NCBI GenBank assembly: GCA_039586795.1
Contig: JBDHJS010000001.1
Span: 1-64,000 of the forward strand
DNA: 64,000 nt
Direction of reading: 5' to 3'
Source of the DNA: Gemmatimonadota bacterium
Lineage (GTDB): Bacteria; Gemmatimonadota; Gemmatimonadetes; Palauibacterales; KS3-K002
Below the pieces are notes generated by a model. That model was not told the DNA's origin. It saw nothing but the letters and a program-made list of their open reading frames with translations, and ran no database searches. This document shows positions 40,975-51,144 of this stretch, piece by piece. A program made the translations under genes and the position numbers. Within the stretch, counting starts at the first letter, position 1; every line of letters starts with the position of its first letter.

Positions 40975-42441
40975 ATGAGCCACGAGACCGAGATCCGTTC
41001 CCTGCCCTGGCGCTACCGGCTAGACGTGCTATCGCCGGATGAGCTCGCCGAAGTCCACGGCCGGACGGTGGATGTCCTCCACGAGATCGGCATCGAGGTG
41101 GGCTCGCCGGCAATCCTCGAGCAGCTTGCGGCAGCCGGAGCCGCCATCGACCTGGAGTCGAGACGTGTGCGCTTCCCCCGCGAGATGACCGAGACGGCGG
41201 TCGCTCGCGCGCCACGTAACATCACCTTCGCGTCTCGATCACCGGGCTGCGATTTGGAACTGGACGGCCAGCGCGGATACATGAGCGTCGATGGCTGCGC
41301 CTCCGATGTCATCGACCTCGACACCGGCGATCGTCGACCCTCTACGAAAGCTGATGTGGCCACCATCACACGGGTCGCCGATGCATTGCCAGAGATCGGA
41401 TTTGTCTGGCAGCCGGCAGCGGCCCGGGATGTGCCGGCCCCGGTCCAATCTCTGCACGAGTTGCACGCCCAGTTGGCCAATACCGGCAAGCACATTCAGA
41501 TGATGACCGCGGCCGAGCCGAACGCTGCCCGGGGTGTGGTCGAGATCGCTCGGCTGGCGGCCGGCGGTGACTCGGAGCTACGGCAGCGGCCCATCATCTC
41601 GAACTTCCAGTGCAGCACCAGCCCGCTGATGTACGACGGCGGCGCCGTGGAGGCCGCCATCATCTTCGCCGAGGCCGGCGTGCCCTGCGGCTTCGTCGTC
41701 ATGCCCATCGCCTGCGCGACGGGGCCGGCCACATGGGGCGGCACGCTGGTCCAGTCCAACGCGGAGGTGTTGGCCGGGATCGTGATCCTCCAGACGCTGG
41801 TGCCTGGAGCGCCGACCTTCTACGGGTCGTGCGCGACGGTGATGGACCTGCGGTCCGGCGCCGCGGCGTGCGGCGGACCGGAAGATCTGCTGCTGCAGAT
41901 GGCGTCCGCTCAACTGGCGCGTCACTACGAAGTGCCTTCCTCCATCGGCACGTTCGCCACCGGTTCGAAGTCGCCCGACTGGCAGGCGGGACTGGAGAAC
42001 GGGCTGTCGGGTTTGGCCAGCGTGCTCTCCGGCGCCGACATGCTGTGCGGCGCCGGTCTGCTGTACGGCGCCCGCGTCTACTCGGCGGAGCAGCTGGTCC
42101 TCGATACGGAGATCTTCTCTCTGCTGAGGCACATGGTGGGTGAACCCATCGATGCGGGCGCGGGTCTGCTGGACGTCCTCGACGCCGCGGGACCGGGCGG
42201 AGAGTTTCTGAGTCAGCGGCACACACTAGAGACGATGCGCAGGTTATGGCTACCTCGGATGTTCGACCGCAGCGAGTGGTCGGAATGGGAGGCGGCGGGC
42301 AAGCCCGACCCGCGTGAGGCGGCGCGGGCGCGGTTGCGTCAGATCCTCGACGAACACAAACCCGACGTGCTGGATGCGGAATTGGACGCGGAGATTCGCC
42401 GCGTCATCCAACGCTATGAGGAACAAGGAGACAGCATCTGA
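40975..42441 (+). CDS. MttB-superfamily (non-pyrrolysine) substrate:corrinoid methyltransferase
   Basis: P.T..GTLVQ.NAE.LAG, PGAP..YG, MDLRSG, SK.PD.QAG.E and GPGG.FL...HT; no internal TAG. Confidence 0.9.
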   Translation: MSHETEIRSLPWRYRLDVLSPDELAEVHGRTVDVLHEIGIEVGSPAILEQLAAAGAAIDLESRRVRFPREMTETAVARAPRNITFASRSPGCDLELDGQRGYMSVDGCASDVIDLDTGDRRPSTKADVATITRVADALPEIGFVWQPAAARDVPAPVQSLHELHAQLANTGKHIQMMTAAEPNAARGVVEIARLAAGGDSELRQRPIISNFQCSTSPLMYDGGAVEAAIIFAEAGVPCGFVVMPIACATGPATWGGTLVQSNAEVLAGIVILQTLVPGAPTFYGSCATVMDLRSGAAACGGPEDLLLQMASAQLARHYEVPSSIGTFATGSKSPDWQAGLENGLSGLASVLSGADMLCGAGLLYGARVYSAEQLVLDTEIFSLLRHMVGEPIDAGAGLLDVLDAAGPGGEFLSQRHTLETMRRLWLPRMFDRSEWSEWEAAGKPDPREAARARLRQILDEHKPDVLDAELDAEIRRVIQRYEEQGDSI

Positions 42442-43082
42442 TGGAAGAGCTACTTGCATCCCTACGACAGGCAATCCTCACGCAAGATGAGGAAGGTGCG
42501 CTGAAGGCGACCCGCAGCCTGTTGGAGTCGAGCATCGACCCGCAGACGATCCTCGAGTCGGGTCTTACCGAGGCGATGCTCGAGCTGGGACGCAGGTGGA
42601 AATGCGGCGACGCGTTTCTTCCCGAGGTGGTCGTCGCCGCCGACATCTTCGCGCGCTGTAGCGAGCTGGTGGAGCCCGCCCTGCTCGAGCGTCGCGACGA
42701 TCGACTCCCCGCCCACCGCCTCGTGCTGGCCACGGTCCAGGGCGACCTGCACGACCTGGGCAAGAACATCGTGGGTGCGATGGCAAAGACCGTCGGCTTC
42801 GAGGTGGTCGACCTGGGCAAGAACGTGCCGACCGACCAGATCGTCGCCGCCGCCAAAGAGGCGAGCCCGTGCATCGTTGGGCTGAGCGCGCTGTTGACCA
42901 CCACCATGCCCCAGCAGAAGGTCGCCGTCGAAGCGATCAAGGCGGCGGGCCTCGGGCCGGCGGTGCGAGTGATCATCGGCGGAGCGCCGGTCACCAAGGA
43001 ATGGGCTGACGAAATTGGCGCTGACGGCTACGCGCCCGACGCCGCCAGCGCGACCGAGCTCGCGCTGTCACTCGTCGACTAG
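42441..43082 (+). CDS. Corrinoid (B12-binding) protein
   Basis: GDLHDLGKNIV (DxHxxG), SALLTTTM, IGGAP and GADGY. Confidence 0.95.
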   Translation: MEELLASLRQAILTQDEEGALKATRSLLESSIDPQTILESGLTEAMLELGRRWKCGDAFLPEVVVAADIFARCSELVEPALLERRDDRLPAHRLVLATVQGDLHDLGKNIVGAMAKTVGFEVVDLGKNVPTDQIVAAAKEASPCIVGLSALLTTTMPQQKVAVEAIKAAGLGPAVRVIIGGAPVTKEWADEIGADGYAPDAASATELALSLVD

Positions 43083-43095
43083 CCGGGGAGTTCAG

Positions 43096-43959
43096 GTGGA
43101 GACCGTCCTGCAATCACGCACTCGTTCCGTCACGATCGGACCGGAACACCCGTTCGTGATCATCGGCGAACGGATCAATCCCACCGGCCGGAAGCAGCTG
43201 ACCGAAGAGTTGCTCCGCGGCGACATGGAGACGGTGCGTGCGGACGCCATCGCCCAGGTTGGAGCCGGTGCCGATGTTCTCGACCTCAACGTCGGGGCGG
43301 TGGGCGCAGACGAAGTGCGCCTCTTGCCCGACGTGGTCACCGCCGTACAAGACGTCGTCGACGCGCCGCTCTGTATCGATTCGCCGAAGCACGATGCGTT
43401 GGAGGCGGCGCTGAAGGCCTGCGACGGCAAGCCGCTCGTCAACTCGGTTACCGGCGAAGATCACAGCCTCGATCGCATCTTGCCTAAGGTGCGTGAGCAC
43501 GGCGCGGCGGTGATCGGCCTGGCGCATGGCGACGCGGGCATCTCGATGAACCCGCCAGATCGCCTGGACGCGGCGCGCCGCATCGTGGAGCGAGCCGACG
43601 AGCTCGGCATCTCGGCCGAAGACGTCATCATCGATCCGCTGGTCATGTCGGTGGGCGCCGACCCGCAGGCGGCGGACATCGCACTCGAGACAATGCGCCT
43701 CGTACGTCAGGAGCTTGGCGCCAACCTCGTGTGCGGGCTGTCCAATGTCTCTCACGGCCTACCGGGTCGCGCCGATCTCAGCTCCGCGTTTCTCGCGATG
43801 GCCATCCAGGCCGGGCTCACGTGCGCTATCGCAAACCCGCAATCTCCGCAGGTGATGCGGATGGCCCGCACGGCGGAGGTGCTCGCCGGTCGCGACCCCT
43901 ACGCCAAGCGGTGGATCCGCGCCTACCGGGAGGAGATGGGCAGATCGGGGGGCGACTGA
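43096..43959 (+). CDS. Methylcorrinoid:tetrahydrofolate methyltransferase (pterin-binding, AcsE/MetH-domain type)
   Basis: IIGERINPTG, GADVLDLN, IDS, NSV, IDPL and GLSNVS.GLP; GTG 43096 after GGGGAG. Confidence 0.9.
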   Translation: METVLQSRTRSVTIGPEHPFVIIGERINPTGRKQLTEELLRGDMETVRADAIAQVGAGADVLDLNVGAVGADEVRLLPDVVTAVQDVVDAPLCIDSPKHDALEAALKACDGKPLVNSVTGEDHSLDRILPKVREHGAAVIGLAHGDAGISMNPPDRLDAARRIVERADELGISAEDVIIDPLVMSVGADPQAADIALETMRLVRQELGANLVCGLSNVSHGLPGRADLSSAFLAMAIQAGLTCAIANPQSPQVMRMARTAEVLAGRDPYAKRWIRAYREEMGRSGGD

Positions 43960-43964
43960 CCGGC

Positions 43965-45650
43965 ATGGGTTCGCCCGATCACGAGGTCCGCTTCCAATCC
44001 TCAGGAAGAACCGCTCGCGTGGCGAGCGAGACCAGCGTGCTGGCCGCGGCGGCCTGGGCCGGCGTCTCCGTCGATTCCGCCTGCGGCGGACACGGAACGT
44101 GCGGAGACTGCCGGGTCAGGATCGTCGAAGGCGCCGTTCCGATCACGCCCGCCGACGAACAACATCTCTCTGAGGCCGAACGCGTCGACGGCTGGAGATT
44201 GGCCTGCCGCGCGATGGTCCGCGGTGACGTTCTCTGCGAAGCCCCGGAACTCTCCGAGCACCCTCGCGCCGCGGTAGAGGGGATCGGACGCGACATCGCG
44301 GTCGAGCCGGCGGTCAGGCTCGAAACCGTCCCGACGGGAACCGCAATAGTTTGCGGCGACCACCAACTCGACGTCATCGAAGTCGGGTCACCCCGGGGGC
44401 TCTACGGCGTGGCTTTCGACCTTGGCACGACAACGGTAGCCGGCGCGCTCGTCGATCTCGTCGAAGGCGACGTCGTGGCCGCGACGAGCATGGTCAACCG
44501 ACAGGTCACCGCCGGGGCAGATGTAATCAGCCGTGCCGCCTTCGCCCGTGCGAACGCCGATGGCATCAGCCAGCTTCAGAGCATGGCCGTGCAAACTCTG
44601 AACGAACTGGTGCTCGTGTTGTGTGGTCAGGCAGGAATCTCGTCGGCTGGCGTGTACGAGACCGTCGTGACTGGCAACGCCATCATGCTTCACATCCTGC
44701 GTGGCCACGACCCGCACCCGCTGGCCGTGGCGCCATTCGAGCCGGCGTTCCGGGAAGCGCTCGACACTGAAGCCGCCGAGATCGGACTCGCCGGCCATCG
44801 ACAGGGACGACTGCAGACCTTCCCGATCATCGGAACGTATGCGGGCGGCGATACCGTGGCCGGCCTTCACGCCACCGACCTGGTACGAGGTGACCGCCCA
44901 CGGCTCCTGATCGACCTAGGCACGAACACCGAGGTGGGGCTCGGATGGAGCGGACGGGTCGTCGTCGCTTCGGCGCCCGCCGGACCCGCTTTCGAGGGCG
45001 GAAGCGTCCGCTGCGGGATGCCCGCGGTACGCGGGGCGATCGTTCGGGTGAAGATCGGCTCGGATGTCGACCTAGAAGTCATCGGCGGCGTAGCGCCGCG
45101 GGGCATCTGCGGCTCCGGGCTGGTGGACGCCGTCGCCCAACTGCGTCGCGCCGGTCTCCTCGATCGAACGGGTTTGCTGACTTCGAAAGATGAAGCGCCG
45201 GACCATCCACTGGCTGATCGCCTGAACACAATAGACGGCGCGCGGGTTTTTCGCCTGACCGACAACATCTACTTAAGCCAACTCGACATCCGGGAGTTGC
45301 AGTCGGCGATCGCCGCGGTGGCGGCAGCCACCCGGATCGTCATGGAGGAAGAAGAGGTCGATCCCGCCGATCTCGCCGACGTCTTCATTGCCGGCTCGTT
45401 CGGCGCCGCACTCGACCCGGCCAGCGCGAGGATCGTCGGGTTGGTGCCTTCCGTTTCTGATCACGTGGTTAGCAGCGTAGGCAACGCGGCGATCGAGGGC
45501 GCCAAGGCAGCGCTGATCTCGTTCCGTGAACGCCAGGTCGCGTTCCAGATTCCTTCCCACGCTGAATACGTGGAGCTGTCAGCCCACCCGAAATTCAACG
45601 ACACGTTCCTCGATGCGATGAAGTTCCCTGACTTGGAGGCGTTGTCATGA
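43965..45650 (+). CDS. ATP-dependent reductive activator of corrinoid proteins (2Fe-2S plus ASKHA, RACo type)
   Basis: CGGHGTCGDC, RLAC, DLGTTT, GADVISR, DLGTN.E, AGPAFEG, GICGSG and AGSFG. Confidence 0.92.
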   Translation: MGSPDHEVRFQSSGRTARVASETSVLAAAAWAGVSVDSACGGHGTCGDCRVRIVEGAVPITPADEQHLSEAERVDGWRLACRAMVRGDVLCEAPELSEHPRAAVEGIGRDIAVEPAVRLETVPTGTAIVCGDHQLDVIEVGSPRGLYGVAFDLGTTTVAGALVDLVEGDVVAATSMVNRQVTAGADVISRAAFARANADGISQLQSMAVQTLNELVLVLCGQAGISSAGVYETVVTGNAIMLHILRGHDPHPLAVAPFEPAFREALDTEAAEIGLAGHRQGRLQTFPIIGTYAGGDTVAGLHATDLVRGDRPRLLIDLGTNTEVGLGWSGRVVVASAPAGPAFEGGSVRCGMPAVRGAIVRVKIGSDVDLEVIGGVAPRGICGSGLVDAVAQLRRAGLLDRTGLLTSKDEAPDHPLADRLNTIDGARVFRLTDNIYLSQLDIRELQSAIAAVAAATRIVMEEEEVDPADLADVFIAGSFGAALDPASARIVGLVPSVSDHVVSSVGNAAIEGAKAALISFRERQVAFQIPSHAEYVELSAHPKFNDTFLDAMKFPDLEALS

Positions 45651-46252
45651 CCCGCCCGGCCCGGCCGGCGCCGCTGGCGATCATCGTCTGCGGGGCGCTC
45701 GCCGTGGACGTGCGGCGCATCCTGGACGAACGCGATTGGCAGGCGGACGTGTACGGCGTGCCGGCGATCCATCACATGCACCCGCCGAAGATCGTCGAAG
45801 CTGTGGATACGCTGCTGGGCGAAGTAGCGGATCGCTATGACAAGGTGATCGTGGTCTACGGCGACTGCGGTACCTCGGGCGCGCTGGACCGAATGCTCGA
45901 ACGCCACCGCGCCGAGCGGACGGCGGGCGAGCACTGCTACGAGATCTACTGCGGATGCGGGTTCGGCGAACTGGCCCAACGCAGCCCGACCACCTATTTC
46001 CTCACCGACTACCTGGCCAAGAACTGGGACGAAGTCGTGGCCGCGGAGATGGGGTTCGATGAGAACCCAGCTCTCAAGGAGCGGTTCTTCGCCGGGTTCA
46101 CCTCGATGACCTACCTGAGACAGTCAGAGGACCCCGATCTGCTGGAGGCGGCAGAGCGCGTTGCCGCCTCGCTGGGTCTGCCGCTGGAGATCGAGACCGT
46201 CGGCCGCCGTGAACTCGAGGCCGAACTCGAGCGTTTGATCAGCAGCCGCTGA
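45647..46252 (+). CDS. DUF1638-family protein
   Basis: CGAL, H..P..I, YGDCGT.G.LD, HCYE and YFLTD.L motifs; typical neighbour of corrinoid genes. Confidence 0.8.
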   Translation: MTRPARPAPLAIIVCGALAVDVRRILDERDWQADVYGVPAIHHMHPPKIVEAVDTLLGEVADRYDKVIVVYGDCGTSGALDRMLERHRAERTAGEHCYEIYCGCGFGELAQRSPTTYFLTDYLAKNWDEVVAAEMGFDENPALKERFFAGFTSMTYLRQSEDPDLLEAAERVAASLGLPLEIETVGRRELEAELERLISSR

Positions 46253-46330
46253 CCCTGTCCGGTCACGCCCGGCTTCTGCGCATAAGGAAAGTAGGACCGC
46301 AGAAGGCCCCAATTACCAAGGAAGAGGCAC

Positions 46331-47116
46331 GTGACGCACGCACCTCCAGTACCCGACGTTGACGTCGAAACGCTCCGTTGCGAGATCCGCAACGAATACG
46401 CTGAAGTCGCCGAGAATCCCGGCCGCGGCTTCCATTTCCACACGGGCCGGCCCCTGGCGAAGATCCTCAGTTACGAAGAAGCTTTGCTAGACGCCGTACC
46501 CGAGAGCGCCATCGAGTCGTTCGCCGGCACCGGCAACCCGTTCAGCCTGGGCGCGATCGCGCCGGGCGCTCGGATCGTCGATATCGGCTCCGGCGCGGGA
46601 ATCGACTCCCTCATCGCCGGACACCTAGCCGGCACCTCCGGCCACGTCATCGGGGTCGACATGACACCCGAGATGCTGGAGAAAGCGACACAGGCCGCGG
46701 AACAGGCGGGCATGGCCCAGGTCGAGTTCCGAGAGGGCTACGCCGAGGCGCTGCCGGTCGACGACGGCTGGGCGGATCTCGTCATCTCGAACGGCGTCAT
46801 TAACCTCTGCCCGGACAAGGTTGCCGCATTCGGCGAGATGCACCGCGTCTTGAAGCCGGGCGGCCGTATCCAGATCGCCGACATCCTGGTGCAGAAGGCC
46901 GTTCCCCTCGATGCGAAGCGCGACATCGATCTCTGGAAGGGTTGAATCGCGGGCGCTCTGCTGGAGGCAGAGCTTCAGGCGACGGTGGAGGCGGCGGGCT
47001 TCCACGGGTTCGAGATCACCTGGCGCGATGACGTCTTCGCCGGCGCACCACAGCAGTCGAGCGCCGCCGCTTTCGGGACGCTGGGGATCAACTTCCGCGC
47101 CGCGAAAGCCCGATAG
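46331..47116 (+). CDS. Putative selenocysteine-containing ArsM-like SAM methyltransferase (UGA at 46943-46945 read as Sec, 261 aa)
   Basis: DIGSGAG.D, GVDMT.EM and RVLKPGG; frame continues WKG-UGA-IAGALL...AAGF for 56 codons to TAG 47114-47116; SECIS-like hairpin follows. Confidence 0.85.
46946..46973 (+). promoter_or_regulatory. Candidate bacterial SECIS element
   Basis: GCTCTGC (46955-46961), loop TGGAG, GCAGAGC (46967-46973); 16 nt between UGA and loop; G at loop position 2. Confidence 0.75.
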
Positions 47117-47206
47117 TCCGGTCTTCAGAGCATCCGGCTCGGGAGTGAGTTCCGAAGTGCTCAACGCAACATGGACTTCTCGGCCCCGCGGAGCCCGGGC
47201 CGCGAG

Positions 47207-48667
47207 TCAGAGATTCAACGCCCCGTAGAGGAAGCCGGTAAGAGCGGACATCGCTACGACCAGAACGATGAAAACCGCGGTCTTCTTGGTACCGATCACA
47301 CTTCGGATCACCAAGATGCTCGGCAACGATACCGCTGGACCGGCCAACAAGAGCGCCAGTGCCGGACCGCTCCCCATACCGCTGCTCAACAGGCCGTCGA
47401 GGATCGGAACCTCAGTCAGCGTGGCGAAATACATGAACGCCCCGGCGACCGATGCGAACAGATTCGCCAACGGTGAGTTACCACCAACCGCGTCGGCCAC
47501 CCAACCTGACGGAATCAGACCCTCGTGTCCCGGGCGCCCTAACAGAAAACCCGCTACCAGCACACCCGCCAGTAGCAGCGGAAGAATCTGTTTGGCATAA
47601 CCCCAAGACGAAGCGAACCACTCTCCCAACTCGCCGTCGCTGGTGCTCGCCACAGCTGAGAGCCCCACGGTCGCCGCGACGAATGGAACGGAGGGCCGTC
47701 CGGGAAAGGCCAACGCGAGCCCGACAGTGGCTATAGACACGGCCAGCAACTGCCAGACCCTCATTCCGAACCAGCGTACGAGAACGATGCCCAATCCAGC
47801 GGCGAGCAGAGCCGTGATCGTCCACTTGGCGGCGTAGATCTCGTGCCAGATCCCCGCCGTCATCCCCGGTCTGCCCCAGTTGGCGAAGACCAGAATGCCG
47901 ACCAGCAGCATGAAGTAGAGAGCCGTCTTCCAAATGGGCCGGCCTTCGTCCGATACGGGAAGCTCGGCCTTCGTCCTTTCCCGTTGGCTCTCTCCGCGAC
48001 GGAAGAACGCGTGCATCAACAGACCGATGACCACCGCAAATACGATGGCTCCCACGGCCCGGGCAATCCCGAGGTGCGGGCCCAGTATTCGAGCCGTCAA
48101 GATGATTGCCAGAACGTTTATCGCCGGACCCGAGTACAGGAATGCGGTGGCAGGCCCGAGGCCGGCGCCCGTCGCGTAGATCCCCGCAAACAGCGGGAGC
48201 ACGGTGCAGGAGCAGACGGCTAGTATCGTACCCGATACTGAGGCCACGCCGTATGCAAGTGCTTTGGGAGCTCGCGGCCCGAGGTAGCGAAGCACTGACT
48301 GCTGACTGACGAACACTGAGATCGCACCGGCGATGAAGAAGGCCGGGACCAGGCACAACAGTACATGCTCGCGGGCATACCACTTGGTGAGCTCGAGGGA
48401 CTCGTTCACCGCCCCGTCGAATCTCGCGTTACCCACCGGTAGGTACCAAGCGGCGATGAAGACGCCGACGATCACAACCAGGGGCTTCCACTCTCGCCCC
48501 CACTCCAGGGCCACGGTCCGTCGCTTGCGACGGCTCCACCAGTTGGCGAGGCGTTCCCGCGCACTCAGCCTGGACTCGCCTACCTCGGCTGCCGGGCCCG
48601 GCGCCTGCCCAGTCGCACCGGTGTCCGCGACCGTCGTTGCTCGCCTCGGCTCCGTCACCGAACCCAT
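47207..48667 (-). CDS. ArsP-family (DUF318) permease
   Basis: AREHVLLCLVPAFFIAG, VCSCTVLP, FLYSGPAIN, YFATLTEVP and GPAVSLP; start may lie further downstream. Confidence 0.85.
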   Translation of the reverse strand: MGSVTEPRRATTVADTGATGQAPGPAAEVGESRLSARERLANWWSRRKRRTVALEWGREWKPLVVIVGVFIAAWYLPVGNARFDGAVNESLELTKWYAREHVLLCLVPAFFIAGAISVFVSQQSVLRYLGPRAPKALAYGVASVSGTILAVCSCTVLPLFAGIYATGAGLGPATAFLYSGPAINVLAIILTARILGPHLGIARAVGAIVFAVVIGLLMHAFFRRGESQRERTKAELPVSDEGRPIWKTALYFMLLVGILVFANWGRPGMTAGIWHEIYAAKWTITALLAAGLGIVLVRWFGMRVWQLLAVSIATVGLALAFPGRPSVPFVAATVGLSAVASTSDGELGEWFASSWGYAKQILPLLLAGVLVAGFLLGRPGHEGLIPSGWVADAVGGNSPLANLFASVAGAFMYFATLTEVPILDGLLSSGMGSGPALALLLAGPAVSLPSILVIRSVIGTKKTAVFIVLVVAMSALTGFLYGALNL

Positions 48668-48676
48668 GTCAGAGAA

Positions 48677-48919
48677 TCAGGATCGGGGGTATGTGAGTAT
48701 CGCCTTGATCTCTTTCACGCTCGGCACCCGACCTGCAACCCTGACCCGTCCATCGACCAACAGTGCAGGCGTAAGTGTGACACCTCGTTTGGCGATCTCG
48801 GCCACTTCATGCACGTACTCGACCTCGGCGTCGAGGTCCAACTCAGCTACCGCATCAAACGTGTTGCGTTTTAGAGTCTGACACCTCGAGCAGCCGGGGC
48901 CGATCACCTCAATCCTCAT
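48677..48919 (-). CDS. Small thioredoxin-like redox protein (MTH895 type)
   Basis: I.V.GPGCSRC, TPAL.VDG and GRVP; RBS GGAGGT. Confidence 0.88.
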   Translation of the reverse strand: MRIEVIGPGCSRCQTLKRNTFDAVAELDLDAEVEYVHEVAEIAKRGVTLTPALLVDGRVRVAGRVPSVKEIKAILTYPRS

Positions 48920-48949
48920 TTCGAGAACCTCCGACATCATTCGAATTCT

Positions 48950-49663
48950 CTAGGGTTCAAACAGCGCCGTGAGCCGGCGCCTGAGCTCATCGCGCACTCC
49001 GCGGAACGAGTCGAGGATCTCCTCATCGCTCCCTTCTGCGGCGGCCGGATCGGAGAGCGGCCAGTGGACACGCTGCGCTTCGCCCAGCCACACCGGACAG
49101 ACCTCCTCAGCGCACAGCGTGATAACAGCGTCCACGTCGGGTCCCTCGAGCTGACGGATATCGTCGATCGCTTTGGAATGCTGGAACGCAGCATCTATAC
49201 CCGTTTCTTCCAGCGCACGAATGGCGAAAGGGTTGACCCGGGACGGTGCCGACCCGGCGGATGAGATGACGACGGTATCCGGCGCCAGGTTCCGGGCGAT
49301 TCCTTCCGCCATCTGACTGCGCGCCGAGTTTGCAACGCAGAGGAAGAGCAGATGTCGTGGTTGCAGTGCGCGAAGTATGCGAGCTTCGATCAACCACTGG
49401 GGAGGTACGCCATCCCCGTCATCGTAACGGCGGCAGGCGAAGGCCGGCGGACCGACGTCGGGCCCGGCCACATCTTCGCCGTTGACCCGCACCGTGGGAG
49501 ATCCGGGAAAAGCGAGTTGCTCAGCTTCCGTGACGTCTCGGATTTCCTTGTGAATGACCTCGGCATCGGGCGTCAAGAGAGCCGTCGTCTCCTGCACGAG
49601 CCGCCGTGCCGGCTCGGCATTGGGACAGTCGGGTGTGGTGAGGACTTCCAGGCGCAGGGTCAT
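48950..49663 (-). CDS. arsC: Arsenate reductase (LMW-PTP fold) fused to N-terminal thioredoxin-like domain
   Basis: P-loop CVANSARSQMAE, TLC....CP and HW...DP; N-domain CPN..GSPTVRVNGED..CR. Confidence 0.85.
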   Translation of the reverse strand: MTLRLEVLTTPDCPNAEPARRLVQETTALLTPDAEVIHKEIRDVTEAEQLAFPGSPTVRVNGEDVAGPDVGPPAFACRRYDDGDGVPPQWLIEARILRALQPRHLLFLCVANSARSQMAEGIARNLAPDTVVISSAGSAPSRVNPFAIRALEETGIDAAFQHSKAIDDIRQLEGPDVDAVITLCAEEVCPVWLGEAQRVHWPLSDPAAAEGSDEEILDSFRGVRDELRRRLTALFEP

Positions 49664-49666
49664 TCT

Positions 49667-50758
49667 CTACTCATCTCCTCCAGCCATTGCCGCGGCCGGG
49701 GCCGCTTCGCCAAAGAAACGACGTTTCAACCACAGCGACACTTGCACGAGGCCGATCATCACCGGCACCTCGACTAGCGGGCCGATGACCGTCGCGAAGG
49801 CCGGCTGTGACGCGATCCCGAACACGGCGATCGCCACGGCGATGGCGAGCTCGAAATCGTTGCTGGCCGCTGTGAGCGCAACCGTCGTGGTCTCCGGATA
49901 CTCACCCCGCAGGAAGCGCGCGGCGAAGAAGGTGATCACGAACATCGCCACGAAATAGATGGCCAATGGAATCGCGATCCGAACCACATCATACGGAAGC
50001 TGCACGATCAGCTCGCCCTTTAGGGAGAACATCACGACAACGGTAAACAGCAAAGCCGCCAAAGTGATTGGGCTGATGCGCGGGATGAATACCCGCTCGT
50101 ACCATTCCCTTCCTTTGAGCTTCAGCAGTGAAAACCGCGTGATGAGACCCGCTAAGAACGGGATGCCCAGGTAGATGAACACGGTACGGGCGATCTCTCC
50201 CACGCTCACATGCATCTCCGCACCCTGAAACCCGAAGAGCGGCGGCAGCAGCGTGATGAAGAACCAGGCGTAGAACCCGTAGAACAGCACCTGGAAAACG
50301 GCATTAGCCGCCACCAGACCTGCCGCCAAGTCGTGGTCACCCTCTGCCAAGTCGTTCCACACCAGCACCATGGCGATACACCGCGCGAGTCCCACCAAGA
50401 TCAAGCCGACGGCATAGCCCGGCATGTCGCGCAGCAACAGGACGGCTAGGAAGAACATCACCAGCGGCCCGATGACCCAGTTCTGCAACAGCGACAGCGC
50501 CAGTATCCGCTTGTGCCGCAGGACCACCCAGAATTTCTCGTAGCGAACTTTGGCGAGCGGCGGGTACATCATCAGGATGAGGCCGATCGCAATAGGAATG
50601 GAAGTCGTCCCGATCTGGGTCGCACGATTGAGCGCCTCGACCGGCTCGGGCCACAGATAGCCGATCGCGACTCCCAAGGCCATGGCGGCGAAAATCCAGA
50701 CCGTCAGATAGCGGTCGAGAAACGAAAGTCGCCGCGCTACGGAACTGTCAGCAGCCAC
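49667..50758 (-). CDS. acr3: ACR3-family arsenite efflux transporter
   Basis: [33 protein letters not shown] and GPLVEVP. Confidence 0.95.
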
Positions 50759-51144
50759 TATGAACTCACTTTCGATCTAGAAGGCGCCACCTCCCGCGGG
50801 GCCGCGGCCGGATGACAGCGCTTGGCTCTCATCTCGTCCAGTTCACCCGCGACCTCCGGAACCGGGACATCAGCCAGCACCCGCCGGAGCATCTCGAGCA
50901 GGGTCCGCTGTTCTTCGCGCGTCGGCTCCGCGGGATGGTAGTAGACCCACAGACCATCCCGACGGTCCTGCAACAACCCGGCGTTGAGCAGGTAACGAAG
51001 GTGCCGGGACGCCTTGGACTGCGAAATCTCGAGAAACCGCTCAACCTCGCAGACGCAAAGTTCCCCGTGGCGGAAGATGAGAGCGAGGATCTGAAGGCGA
51101 ACGTCTTCGGAGAGCGCCTTGAACTGCTGCGTCAGCTGGAGCAT
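50758..51144 (-). CDS. arsR: As(III)-responsive ArsR repressor
   Basis: FKALS...RL.I, ELCVCE metal site and [12 protein letters not shown] 51144. Confidence 0.9.

What the first reader, a model, noticed from the sequence alone, without database searches (positions are those of the whole stretch)
46331..47116. Hidden selenoprotein: ArsM-like methyltransferase recoded at UGA 46943-46945
Seen: the 204-aa ORF stops mid-fold at ...DLWKG-TGA, but the same frame continues IAGALLEAELQATVEAAGF...FRAAKAR for 56 codons to TAG at 47116. A 7-bp hairpin (GCTCTGC/GCAGAGC, loop TGGAG) follows, with 16 nt between the UGA and the loop. Known: arsenite methyltransferases carry WxGC(I/L)xGA...AGF at this position, and bacterial SECIS elements have this spacing with a G early in the apical loop. 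Two other ArsM cysteines look replaced (AGTGNP for GCGNP; SNGV for SNCV, with a Cys nearby in INLCPDK). Inference: a 261-aa Sec enzyme whose chemistry may differ from canonical ArsM.
Basis: partly seen in the sequence, partly recalled or inferred. Interest (0 to 1): 0.85.

Follow-up and report, generated by a model that had tools for sequence, protein, structure and literature searches.

The report
Selenocysteine ArsM-like methyltransferase lacking arsenic cysteines
The apparent stop codon inside this methyltransferase gene is most likely read as selenocysteine, a known kind of recoding, but this widespread branch lacks the other cysteines that arsenic-methylating enzymes need, so it likely methylates a sulfur compound rather than arsenite.

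Summary
Observation confirmed. TGA 46943-46945 is in frame and aligns with CmArsM Cys224; 56 codons follow, then TAG. The genome has selA, selB, selD and tRNA-Sec. Of 80 related loci, 67 have TGA, 12 TGC and 1 TAG at this column. selA was found in 37 of 37 TGA genomes tested and 4 of 12 TGC genomes. The hairpin fits the bacterial SECIS model, covaries in TGA forms and decays in Cys forms. Recoding probability is about 0.97.

Sec-containing arsenite methyltransferases (UxxG) are already catalogued, and this scan has noted this family before in other genomes. The whole clade lacks the Cys72 and Cys174 equivalents, separates from canonical ArsM on a tree, and scores below every NCBIfam cut-off shown. 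The genome has its own four-Cys ArsM elsewhere. Sulfur-relay genes lie near 33 of 80 homologous loci, seeded arsenic genes near 1 of 80. Most likely this is a single-Sec methyltransferase for reactive sulfur, which is untested. An adjacent ars operon keeps organoarsenic methylation alive as a rival. Verdict: new variant of a known kind, moderate interest.

The parts
46318..46327 (+). Purine-rich ribosome-binding-site-like stretch before GTG 46331
   Evidence: Seen in the sequence. The start is supported by homologues of the same 204-aa truncated length. Its function as an RBS is inferred.
46331..47116 (+). Full gene: 261-aa ArsM-fold SAM methyltransferase with Sec205 (recorded as a 204-aa protein)
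   Evidence: P0002. AlphaFold mean pLDDT 95, pTM 0.93, with confident structure after residue 205. The top 13 Foldseek hits are all ArsM/AS3MT.
46430..46447 (+). FHFHTG motif (His35, His37), in the N-terminal region where canonical ArsM has its Cys cluster
   Evidence: H35 in 76 of 81 loci and H37 in 74 of 81. A role as active-site ligand or base is inferred; geometry was not measured.
46529..46531 (+). Thr67, at the position of CmArsM Cys72 (GCGNP)
   Evidence: Alignment. T, V, M or I and never Cys in 81 loci.
46580..46600 (+). SAM-binding motif I (DIGSGAG), intact
   Evidence: G88, G90 and D92 invariant in alignment A1; Pfam Methyltransf_31.
46793..46795 (+). Gly155, at the position of CmArsM Cys174 (SNCV)
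   Evidence: Gly in 81 of 81 loci and in 121 of 121 rows.
46808..46810 (+). Cys160, candidate resolving or second thiol, enriched in Sec forms
   Evidence: 46 of 68 TGA loci against 2 of 12 TGC loci. In one search the rows with Cys160 are the query and the 22 hits cut off at WKG. Not significant on independent pairs.
46943..46945 (+). In-frame UGA, inferred Sec205 (equivalent to CmArsM Cys224)
46947..46982 (+). Bacterial SECIS: upper stem 46955-46961/46967-46973, loop 46962-46966, variable lower stem 46947-46950/46979-46982
   Evidence: Model constraints from PMC13188914. Same geometry as the hairpin behind this genome's selD TGA.
40975..46252 (+). Upstream co-directional cluster: MttB-family methyltransferase, corrinoid protein, MTHF:corrinoid methyltransferase, RACo, DUF1638 (context, not shown to be functionally linked)
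   Evidence: RACo and DUF1638 lie beside the gene only in the same-genus genome G002, among 109 loci searched.
47207..51141 (-). Convergent ars operon: ArsR, Acr3, DF-domain-ArsC fusion, small thioredoxin, ArsP-type permease (context)
   Evidence: ArsC and Acr3 are also adjacent in G002, without the permease. ArsC near 1 of 80 other loci, Acr3 0, ArsP 0.

Best explanation
This gene most likely encodes a 261-residue selenoprotein, an ArsM-fold SAM-dependent methyltransferase whose UGA205 is likely recoded by SelB and tRNA-Sec through the adjacent SECIS hairpin, and which likely methylates a reactive sulfur species rather than arsenite. Shown: the frame, the machinery, the Sec/Cys column, the covarying hairpin, the intact SAM motif, the loss of the Cys72 and Cys174 equivalents, and the family's sulfur-relay neighbours. 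Inferred: with one chalcogen left at the substrate site, the Sec205 selenolate would capture a single soft atom (persulfide or sulfane sulfur from rhodanese, TusA or DsrE carriers, or HS-/HSe-) as a selenenyl-sulfide. SAM would methylate that atom, and Cys160 or a cellular thiol would release the product (methanethiol, DMS or the Se analogue). His35 and His37 may position or deprotonate the substrate. The confidence given is for the whole statement; the recoding alone is about 0.97.
For: Recoding. selA, selB and selD are over their cut-offs, and a tRNA-Sec is present; selD itself has a TGA plus a same-geometry hairpin. 67 of 80 related loci have TGA and 12 have TGC. All 17 other matches at 52% identity or more among 100 relatives have TGA at this column. 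93 of 120 protein hits have Cys here and 22 stop exactly here, one of them the window's own. selA is found in 37 of 37 TGA genomes, 4 of 12 TGC genomes and 0 of 1 TAG genome. The stem is 96.4% paired, with 3 of 7 pairs changed on both sides and 44 such cells; 0 of 500 shuffles reach that, and slid controls give 27-51%. Mean pairs are 6.75 of 7 in TGA loci against 3.6 of 7 in TGC loci. The C-terminal part folds confidently.
Not classical ArsM. All four Cys are needed for As(III) and Cys174 plus Cys224 for MAs(III) (PMC6138428 passages). The clade splits from canonical ArsM at 99 SH-aLRT. The genome has a separate four-motif ArsM on C80, and 20 of 37 TGA genomes have a stop-free match to it at 47-75% identity (motifs not inspected).
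Sulfur link. Rhodanese, persulfide-dioxygenase-like, DsrE or TusA genes lie in 33 of 80 loci, against 3 places in the whole 4.68-Mb own genome. The label changes 10 times on the tree. 16 of 120 protein hits are TusA fusions. A DsrE gene is adjacent in 4 of 13 same-family loci.
Against: There is no biochemical or proteomic evidence. The own locus has no sulfur-relay neighbour and lies 90 bp from an ars operon, an arrangement kept in G002. 47 of 80 loci have none of the sulfur genes. The sulfur seeds came from these same loci while each arsenic gene had one seed, so the count leans towards sulfur, and the loci are not independent. The persulfide-dioxygenase label rests on my recognition of MBL-fold sequences, not on a family scan. 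A single-Cys ArsM with two His residues does methylate arsenite in Thermus (bioRxiv 10.1101/2021.07.12.452139, passages), and the fold is closest to ArsM. The known H2S/MeSH methyltransferases (MddH, MddM) were not linked to ArsM in the passages read, and the MddH paper concludes it likely needs no metal cofactor. The Cys160-Sec link is not significant on independent pairs. About 10 TGA loci (loop CCCGT, pair 12-26 broken) lack a G in the first two loop positions of my register.
Confidence: 0.42

Rival explanations
1. Same selenoprotein, but it finishes arsenic methylation. A single Sec binds mono-coordinate DMAs(III), or MAs(III) with Cys160 or His help, and methylates it, downstream of the canonical ArsM and beside the ars operon.
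For: DMAs(III) binds one Cys (PMC3877260 abstract), specifically Cys224 (PMC6138428), which is the position kept as Sec. An ars operon is adjacent here and in G002. A canonical ArsM is present in the same genome. The top fold hits are ArsM.
Against: ArsC lies near 1 of 80 homologous loci, Acr3 and ArsP near none. The gene is convergent with the ars operon, not part of it. 17 of 37 TGA genomes gave no stop-free match to the canonical ArsM (incomplete MAGs).
Confidence: 0.25
2. Selenoprotein that methylates As(III) by a non-canonical Sec plus two-His site, like Thermus TtArsM.
For: TtArsM has one Cys and two His and methylates arsenite. H35 and H37 are conserved in 76 and 74 of 81 loci. JGI names many hits 'arsenite methyltransferase' (automatic names).
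Against: TtArsM was not aligned to this protein here, so equivalence of its Cys and His positions is untested. The function would be redundant with the genome's four-Cys ArsM, and ars neighbours are rare in the family.
Confidence: 0.1
3. Selenoprotein methyltransferase for another soft substrate (Se/Te oxyanion metabolites, Sb, Hg, or an organic thiol), or an accessory to the upstream corrinoid demethylase cluster.
For: It is co-directional with, and 78 bp behind, the MttB/corrinoid/RACo/DUF1638 cluster. Neighbourhoods are varied, with DUF2652 fusions and OsmC neighbours.
Against: The corrinoid linkage appears in only 1 of 109 loci searched, the same-genus genome. There is no positive evidence for any particular substrate.
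Confidence: 0.21
4. The TGA is a true stop: a truncated protein or a pseudogene.
For: Databases record 204-aa products. The hairpin alone is only modestly better than shuffles. There is no direct proof of readthrough.
Against: TGA sits at one column across at least seven phyla, with 54-85 open codons behind it. It is tied to selA. The hairpin covaries and is lost in Cys forms. Truncation would remove the last helices and strands of a confidently predicted domain.
Confidence: 0.02

Closest known systems
Arsenite methyltransferase selenoprotein family (NF008823/PRK11873, motif UxxG, example WP_011987699.1; listed in PMC13188914 and PMC9312934, credited in PMC13188914 to Fomenko et al. 2007)
   Same: ArsM fold, one Sec in a U-x-x-G motif at the C-terminal catalytic Cys column, bacterial SECIS.
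   Different: Scores 221.9 bits against the cut-off of 263 and lacks the Cys72 and Cys174 equivalents. Whether WP_011987699.1 keeps those cysteines was not checked; Fomenko 2007 was not read.
ArsM/AS3MT (CmArsM 4FR0/4KW7, CrArsM 5EVJ, human AS3MT 8XT7)
   Same: Closest solved sequences and folds (E 3e-27 by sequence, TMq 0.65-0.75); SAM motif; Cys224 position kept as Sec.
   Different: Only one of the four catalytic Cys positions is kept; it has an N-terminal FHFHTG motif; it is shorter, with a different C-terminus; it forms a separate clade.
NCBIfam multi-Sec fusions ArsM_AhpD_UU (NF041537), ArsM_DUF2284_UU (NF041536), MTase_UXPK_star (NF047649); MduS
   Same: Sec in a UxxG motif in an ArsM-like domain for the three NF models (best NCBIfam hits, 215-233 bits).
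   Different: No fused second domain, one Sec only, far below cut-offs of 460-575. MduS has a CxxU motif and two Sec. The Haft and Tolstoy 2025 paper describing these was not available.
Thermus thermophilus TtArsM (single Cys77 plus His40 and His179)
   Same: Precedent for a methyltransferase with one Cys and two His acting on a soft metalloid.
   Different: Not a selenoprotein; no alignment to this protein was made.
H2S/methanethiol S-methyltransferases MddH, MddM1/2 (PMC11445057, PMC12904073) and TPMT acting on reactive sulfur (PMC13089183, abstract only)
   Same: The proposed reaction type: SAM-dependent S-methylation as detoxification.
   Different: MddH is UbiE-like; no ArsM or arsenic mention was found in the two Mdd papers; sequences were not compared.

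Membership tests
Bacterial selenoprotein gene | In-frame UGA aligned with Cys in homologues, with conservation on both sides | tested here: met
Bacterial selenoprotein gene | selA, selB, selC, selD in the genome | tested here: met
   co-occurrence with selA in 37 of 37 TGA genomes tested
Bacterial selenoprotein gene | bSECIS model: 3-9 nt loop, 4-16 bp upper stem, G in the first two loop bases, 16-37 nt spacing, MFE <= -7.5 | tested here: met
   Criteria; measured; covariation. bSECISearch itself was not run.
Bacterial selenoprotein gene | Sec physically present in the protein | not testable with these tools
   Needs 75Se labelling or MS
Arsenite methyltransferase selenoproteins (NF008823, UxxG) | UxxG motif in an ArsM-type domain | tested here: met
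   U-I-A-G at 205-208; motif listed
Arsenite methyltransferase selenoproteins (NF008823, UxxG) | Score above the NF008823 cut-off (263 bits) | tested here: not met
   221.9 bits
Canonical ArsM/AS3MT | Class I SAM methyltransferase fold of ArsM type | tested here: met
Canonical ArsM/AS3MT | Cys174 equivalent (SNCV) | tested here: not met
   Gly155 in 81 of 81 loci
Canonical ArsM/AS3MT | Cys72 equivalent (GCGNP) | tested here: not met
   Thr67; no Cys in 81 loci
Canonical ArsM/AS3MT | Cys44 equivalent (N-terminal Cys) | tested here: inconclusive
   This region did not align to CmArsM. The only N-terminal Cys, C17, is in 6 of 68 TGA loci.
Canonical ArsM/AS3MT | Cys224 equivalent | tested here: met
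   Held by Sec205
Canonical ArsM/AS3MT | Methylates As(III) with SAM | not testable with these tools
   Needs an assay
ArsM_AhpD_UU / ArsM_DUF2284_UU / MTase_UXPK_star | Fused second domain with further Sec; score above cut-off | tested here: not met
   Single domain, one TGA, 215-233 bits against 460-575
MddH/MddM S-methyltransferases | Sequence membership and H2S/MeSH methylation | not tested
   Only paper passages were read

The most novel reading that the evidence does not exclude
A widespread, annotation-hidden clade of single-selenocysteine methyltransferases, derived from the ArsM fold but moved off arsenic, that methylates persulfide or sulfide sulfur (or selenide) delivered by rhodanese/TusA/DsrE carriers. 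It would be an unrecognised selenium-dependent route to methanethiol and DMS in soils and sediments, present even in Actinomycetota.
Probability: 0.35. Interest if true: 0.75.

Novelty: new variant of a known kind. Interest (0 to 1): 0.38.

Why it matters
The recoding is a known kind, so for this gene the gain is a corrected annotation (261 aa, not 204). The family matters more. About 1000 stretches in GTDB genomes matched the query patterns (estimate), and most close relatives are cut at the UGA or auto-named 'arsenite methyltransferase'. If they do not act on arsenite, arsM gene counts in metagenomes overstate arsenic-methylation capacity. If they act on reactive sulfur, they add a selenium-dependent enzyme to MeSH/DMS cycling. 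Natural Sec and Cys versions exist side by side, so the substrate question can be tested directly.

Tried and rejected
Assembly error: rejected.
A functional link to the upstream corrinoid cluster or the ars operon as a family trait: found only in the same-genus genome.
Cys160 as an obligatory partner of Sec: absent from 22 of 68 TGA loci, with only 3-4 independent pairs and p 0.5-1. Cys17 is limited to 6 of 68.
An Rfam scan of 45500-48000 gave one chance match (E 0.96). The promoter/terminator scan found no + strand site.
Expression: RNA-library contigs X11 and X17 cover parts of the gene, but contigs cannot show transcription, strand or level. Runs with small word shares were not used.
The first neighbour clustering was swamped by shadow ORFs and was redone with a composition score.
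The Pfam scan of 47 longer homologues showed only five families each, which hid most fusion domains; DUF2652, Thioredoxin_5 and Radical_SAM were visible.
Distances between U205, C160, H35 and H37 could not be measured, because model coordinates are not returned.
The language-model look-alike search and the database-name look-up could not be made, so those questions stay open.
Literature searches found no paper describing this Cys-poor clade. Haft and Tolstoy 2025 was not held, Fomenko 2007 was not read, and no supplements were opened, so a prior description there is not excluded.

Full report
1. Observation. GTG 46331 opens a 204-codon ORF ending at TGA 46943-46945; read as Sec, the frame runs 56 more codons to TAG at 47116, giving 261 aa. 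The 7-bp stem (46955-46961/46967-46973), the 5-nt loop and the 16-nt spacing are present. ViennaRNA adds one U-G pair and a lower stem, -19.4 kcal/mol, with only moderate z-scores for the hairpin alone. The same geometry follows 165 of 129,525 TGA triplets in this genome. Contigs from 3 of 4 runs laid span the codon with no difference; one may be the source sample. The closest named homologues are Gemmatimonadota at 81-84% identity, so the host is inferred to be one.

2. The UGA is a Sec codon. The genome (97.8% complete) has selA, selB and selD above their curated cut-offs and a tRNA-Sec. selD carries its own TGA followed by a hairpin of the same geometry. Of the best 120 protein hits, 93 have Cys at this column, 22 stop exactly before it (one is the window's own product), and 5 have W, Y or R. 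Among 100 relatives, all 17 other matches at 52% identity or more have TGA here, and a second, more distant paralogue class (41-48%) does too. I tested 50 of the 80 loci's genomes for selA: it was found in 37 of 37 TGA carriers, 4 of 12 TGC carriers and not in the one TAG carrier (MAGs are incomplete and kin are not independent). Across 63 distinct TGA sequences the stem is 96.4% paired, three pairs change on both sides (C-G/G-C, U-A/C-G, G-C/C-G), no shuffle of 500 reaches the paired fraction or the covariation score, and slid registers give 27-51% (the structure was taken from the query, which favours it). In Cys forms the same register keeps 3.6 of 7 pairs, against 6.75. The element meets the four bSECIS criteria quoted in PMC13188914; about 10 actinobacterial-type loci deviate in the loop. 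The AlphaFold model has mean pLDDT 95, with ordered helices and strands after residue 205. Sec incorporation itself is inferred, not observed.

3. It is not a canonical ArsM. The nearest solved sequences and folds are ArsM/AS3MT, and U205 aligns with CmArsM Cys224. But the Cys72 position is never Cys and the Cys174 position is Gly in 81 of 81 loci. PMC6138428 (passages) states that all four Cys are needed for As(III) methylation, that Cys174 and Cys224 hold MAs(III), and that DMAs(III) is held by Cys224 alone. A quick IQ-TREE run on 78 selected rows (trait column masked) separates 69 'SNG' rows from 9 canonical rows at 99 SH-aLRT, with 7 Sec/Cys changes inside the clade (the root was set on the canonical rows). 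The genome encodes a canonical ArsM with all Cys motifs on contig C80, and 20 of 37 TGA genomes have a stop-free match to it (motifs not inspected). The protein scores below all 25 NCBIfam cut-offs shown (of 47 hits), including NF008823 at 221.9 against 263. The clade instead conserves His35 and His37 in FHFHTG. Cys160 is enriched in Sec forms (46 of 68 against 2 of 12), but this is not significant on independent pairs (five loci and two thirds of the Cys-form proteins were left out of that tree).

4. Context. Here the gene follows a corrinoid demethylase-type cluster by 78 bp and converges on an ars operon 90 bp away. That arrangement recurs only in the same-genus genome G002. In the wider family, rhodanese (often fused to an ArsR-type regulator), persulfide-dioxygenase-like, DsrE or TusA genes lie in 33 of 80 loci, ArsC in 1, and Acr3 and ArsP in none; the same sulfur seeds hit only 3 places in the own 4.68-Mb genome. 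The seeds were drawn from these loci, which favours the sulfur count. 16 of 120 protein hits are TusA fusions, and a DsrE gene abuts the gene in 4 of 13 same-family loci. Two earlier scan notes named this sulfur association before I counted it; the counts are mine.

5. Mechanism. Shown: the SAM motif, the fold, one chalcogen at the substrate site, and sulfur-relay neighbours in the family. Inferred: the Sec205 selenolate binds one soft atom, most likely persulfide or sulfide sulfur, SAM methylates it, and Cys160 or a cellular thiol releases it (0.42). The rivals are terminal methylation of DMAs(III) or MAs(III), which fits the single retained site and the local ars operon (0.25); some other soft substrate, or a role with the corrinoid cluster (0.21); As(III) methylation by a Sec plus His site, as in Thermus TtArsM (0.10); and a true stop (0.02).

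6. What is known. 'Arsenite methyltransferase, UxxG, 1 Sec' is listed among prokaryotic selenoprotein families in PMC13188914 and PMC9312934 (table passages), with Fomenko et al. 2007 as the source in PMC13188914 (reference list; paper not read). NCBIfam holds three ArsM-like multi-Sec fusion models. So it works like a known Sec ArsM-type gene at the recoding level, but fails membership of canonical ArsM on two defining cysteines. My searches found no description of this Cys-poor clade. Haft and Tolstoy 2025 was not held and no supplements were read, so this is weak evidence of novelty. The scan has look-alike stretches in 13 other genomes; the 8 notes shown report the same family.

Papers seen: PMC13188914, PMC9312934, PMC12013277, PMC6138428, PMC12904073, PMC11445057 and bioRxiv 2021.07.12.452139 as passages; PMC3877260 and PMC13089183 as listing and start of abstract.

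7. Verdict. A real, well-supported selenoprotein gene and a new variant of a known kind. Interest 0.38: the recoding would not surprise a specialist, but the unknown substrate of a large, mis-annotated clade is a testable open question.

Noticed in passing
L063:6586-6588 (Geodermatophilus MAG): A homologue with TAG instead of TGA at the Sec column, a relic hairpin (6 of 7 pairs) and no selA found in its genome; probably a dead former selenoprotein gene.
   Followed up: partly
L107 and L108 (G088, G071): A Cys-form paralogue and a Sec-form paralogue of the clade lie about 1.3 kb apart, with a small membrane protein gene between them that has no Pfam match.
   Followed up: partly
L016, L076, L080: selB lies within about 1 kb (median) of the Sec methyltransferase gene in 3 of 80 loci.
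   Followed up: no
L045 and other Actinomycetota loci: TGA forms with selA occur in Pseudonocardia, Rubrobacter and Acidimicrobiia, largely aerobic groups by my own knowledge, whereas PMC13188914 says aerobes rarely keep selenoproteins.
   Followed up: no
L031-L085, position 212: 32 of 68 TGA loci have an extra Cys seven residues after the Sec (U-I-A-G-x-L-P-C), encoded inside the SECIS loop.
   Followed up: no
window 48950-49663 (-): ArsC fused to an N-terminal 'DF family (seleno)protein' domain in its Cys form, just under the cut-off (62.8 against 70 bits).
   Followed up: no
window 40975-46252 (+): A complete pyrrolysine-free MttB-type corrinoid methyltransferase module in a probable Gemmatimonadota genome; the MttB ORF has no internal stop.
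   Followed up: partly
P0004, P0006, P0019: JGI proteins with W at the Sec column and longer C-termini; possibly a gene caller reading TGA as Trp. The DNA was not checked.
   Followed up: no
P0125, P0129, P0132, P0134, P0140: DUF2652 fused in front of the methyltransferase domain, with the proteins ending at the Sec column.
   Followed up: no
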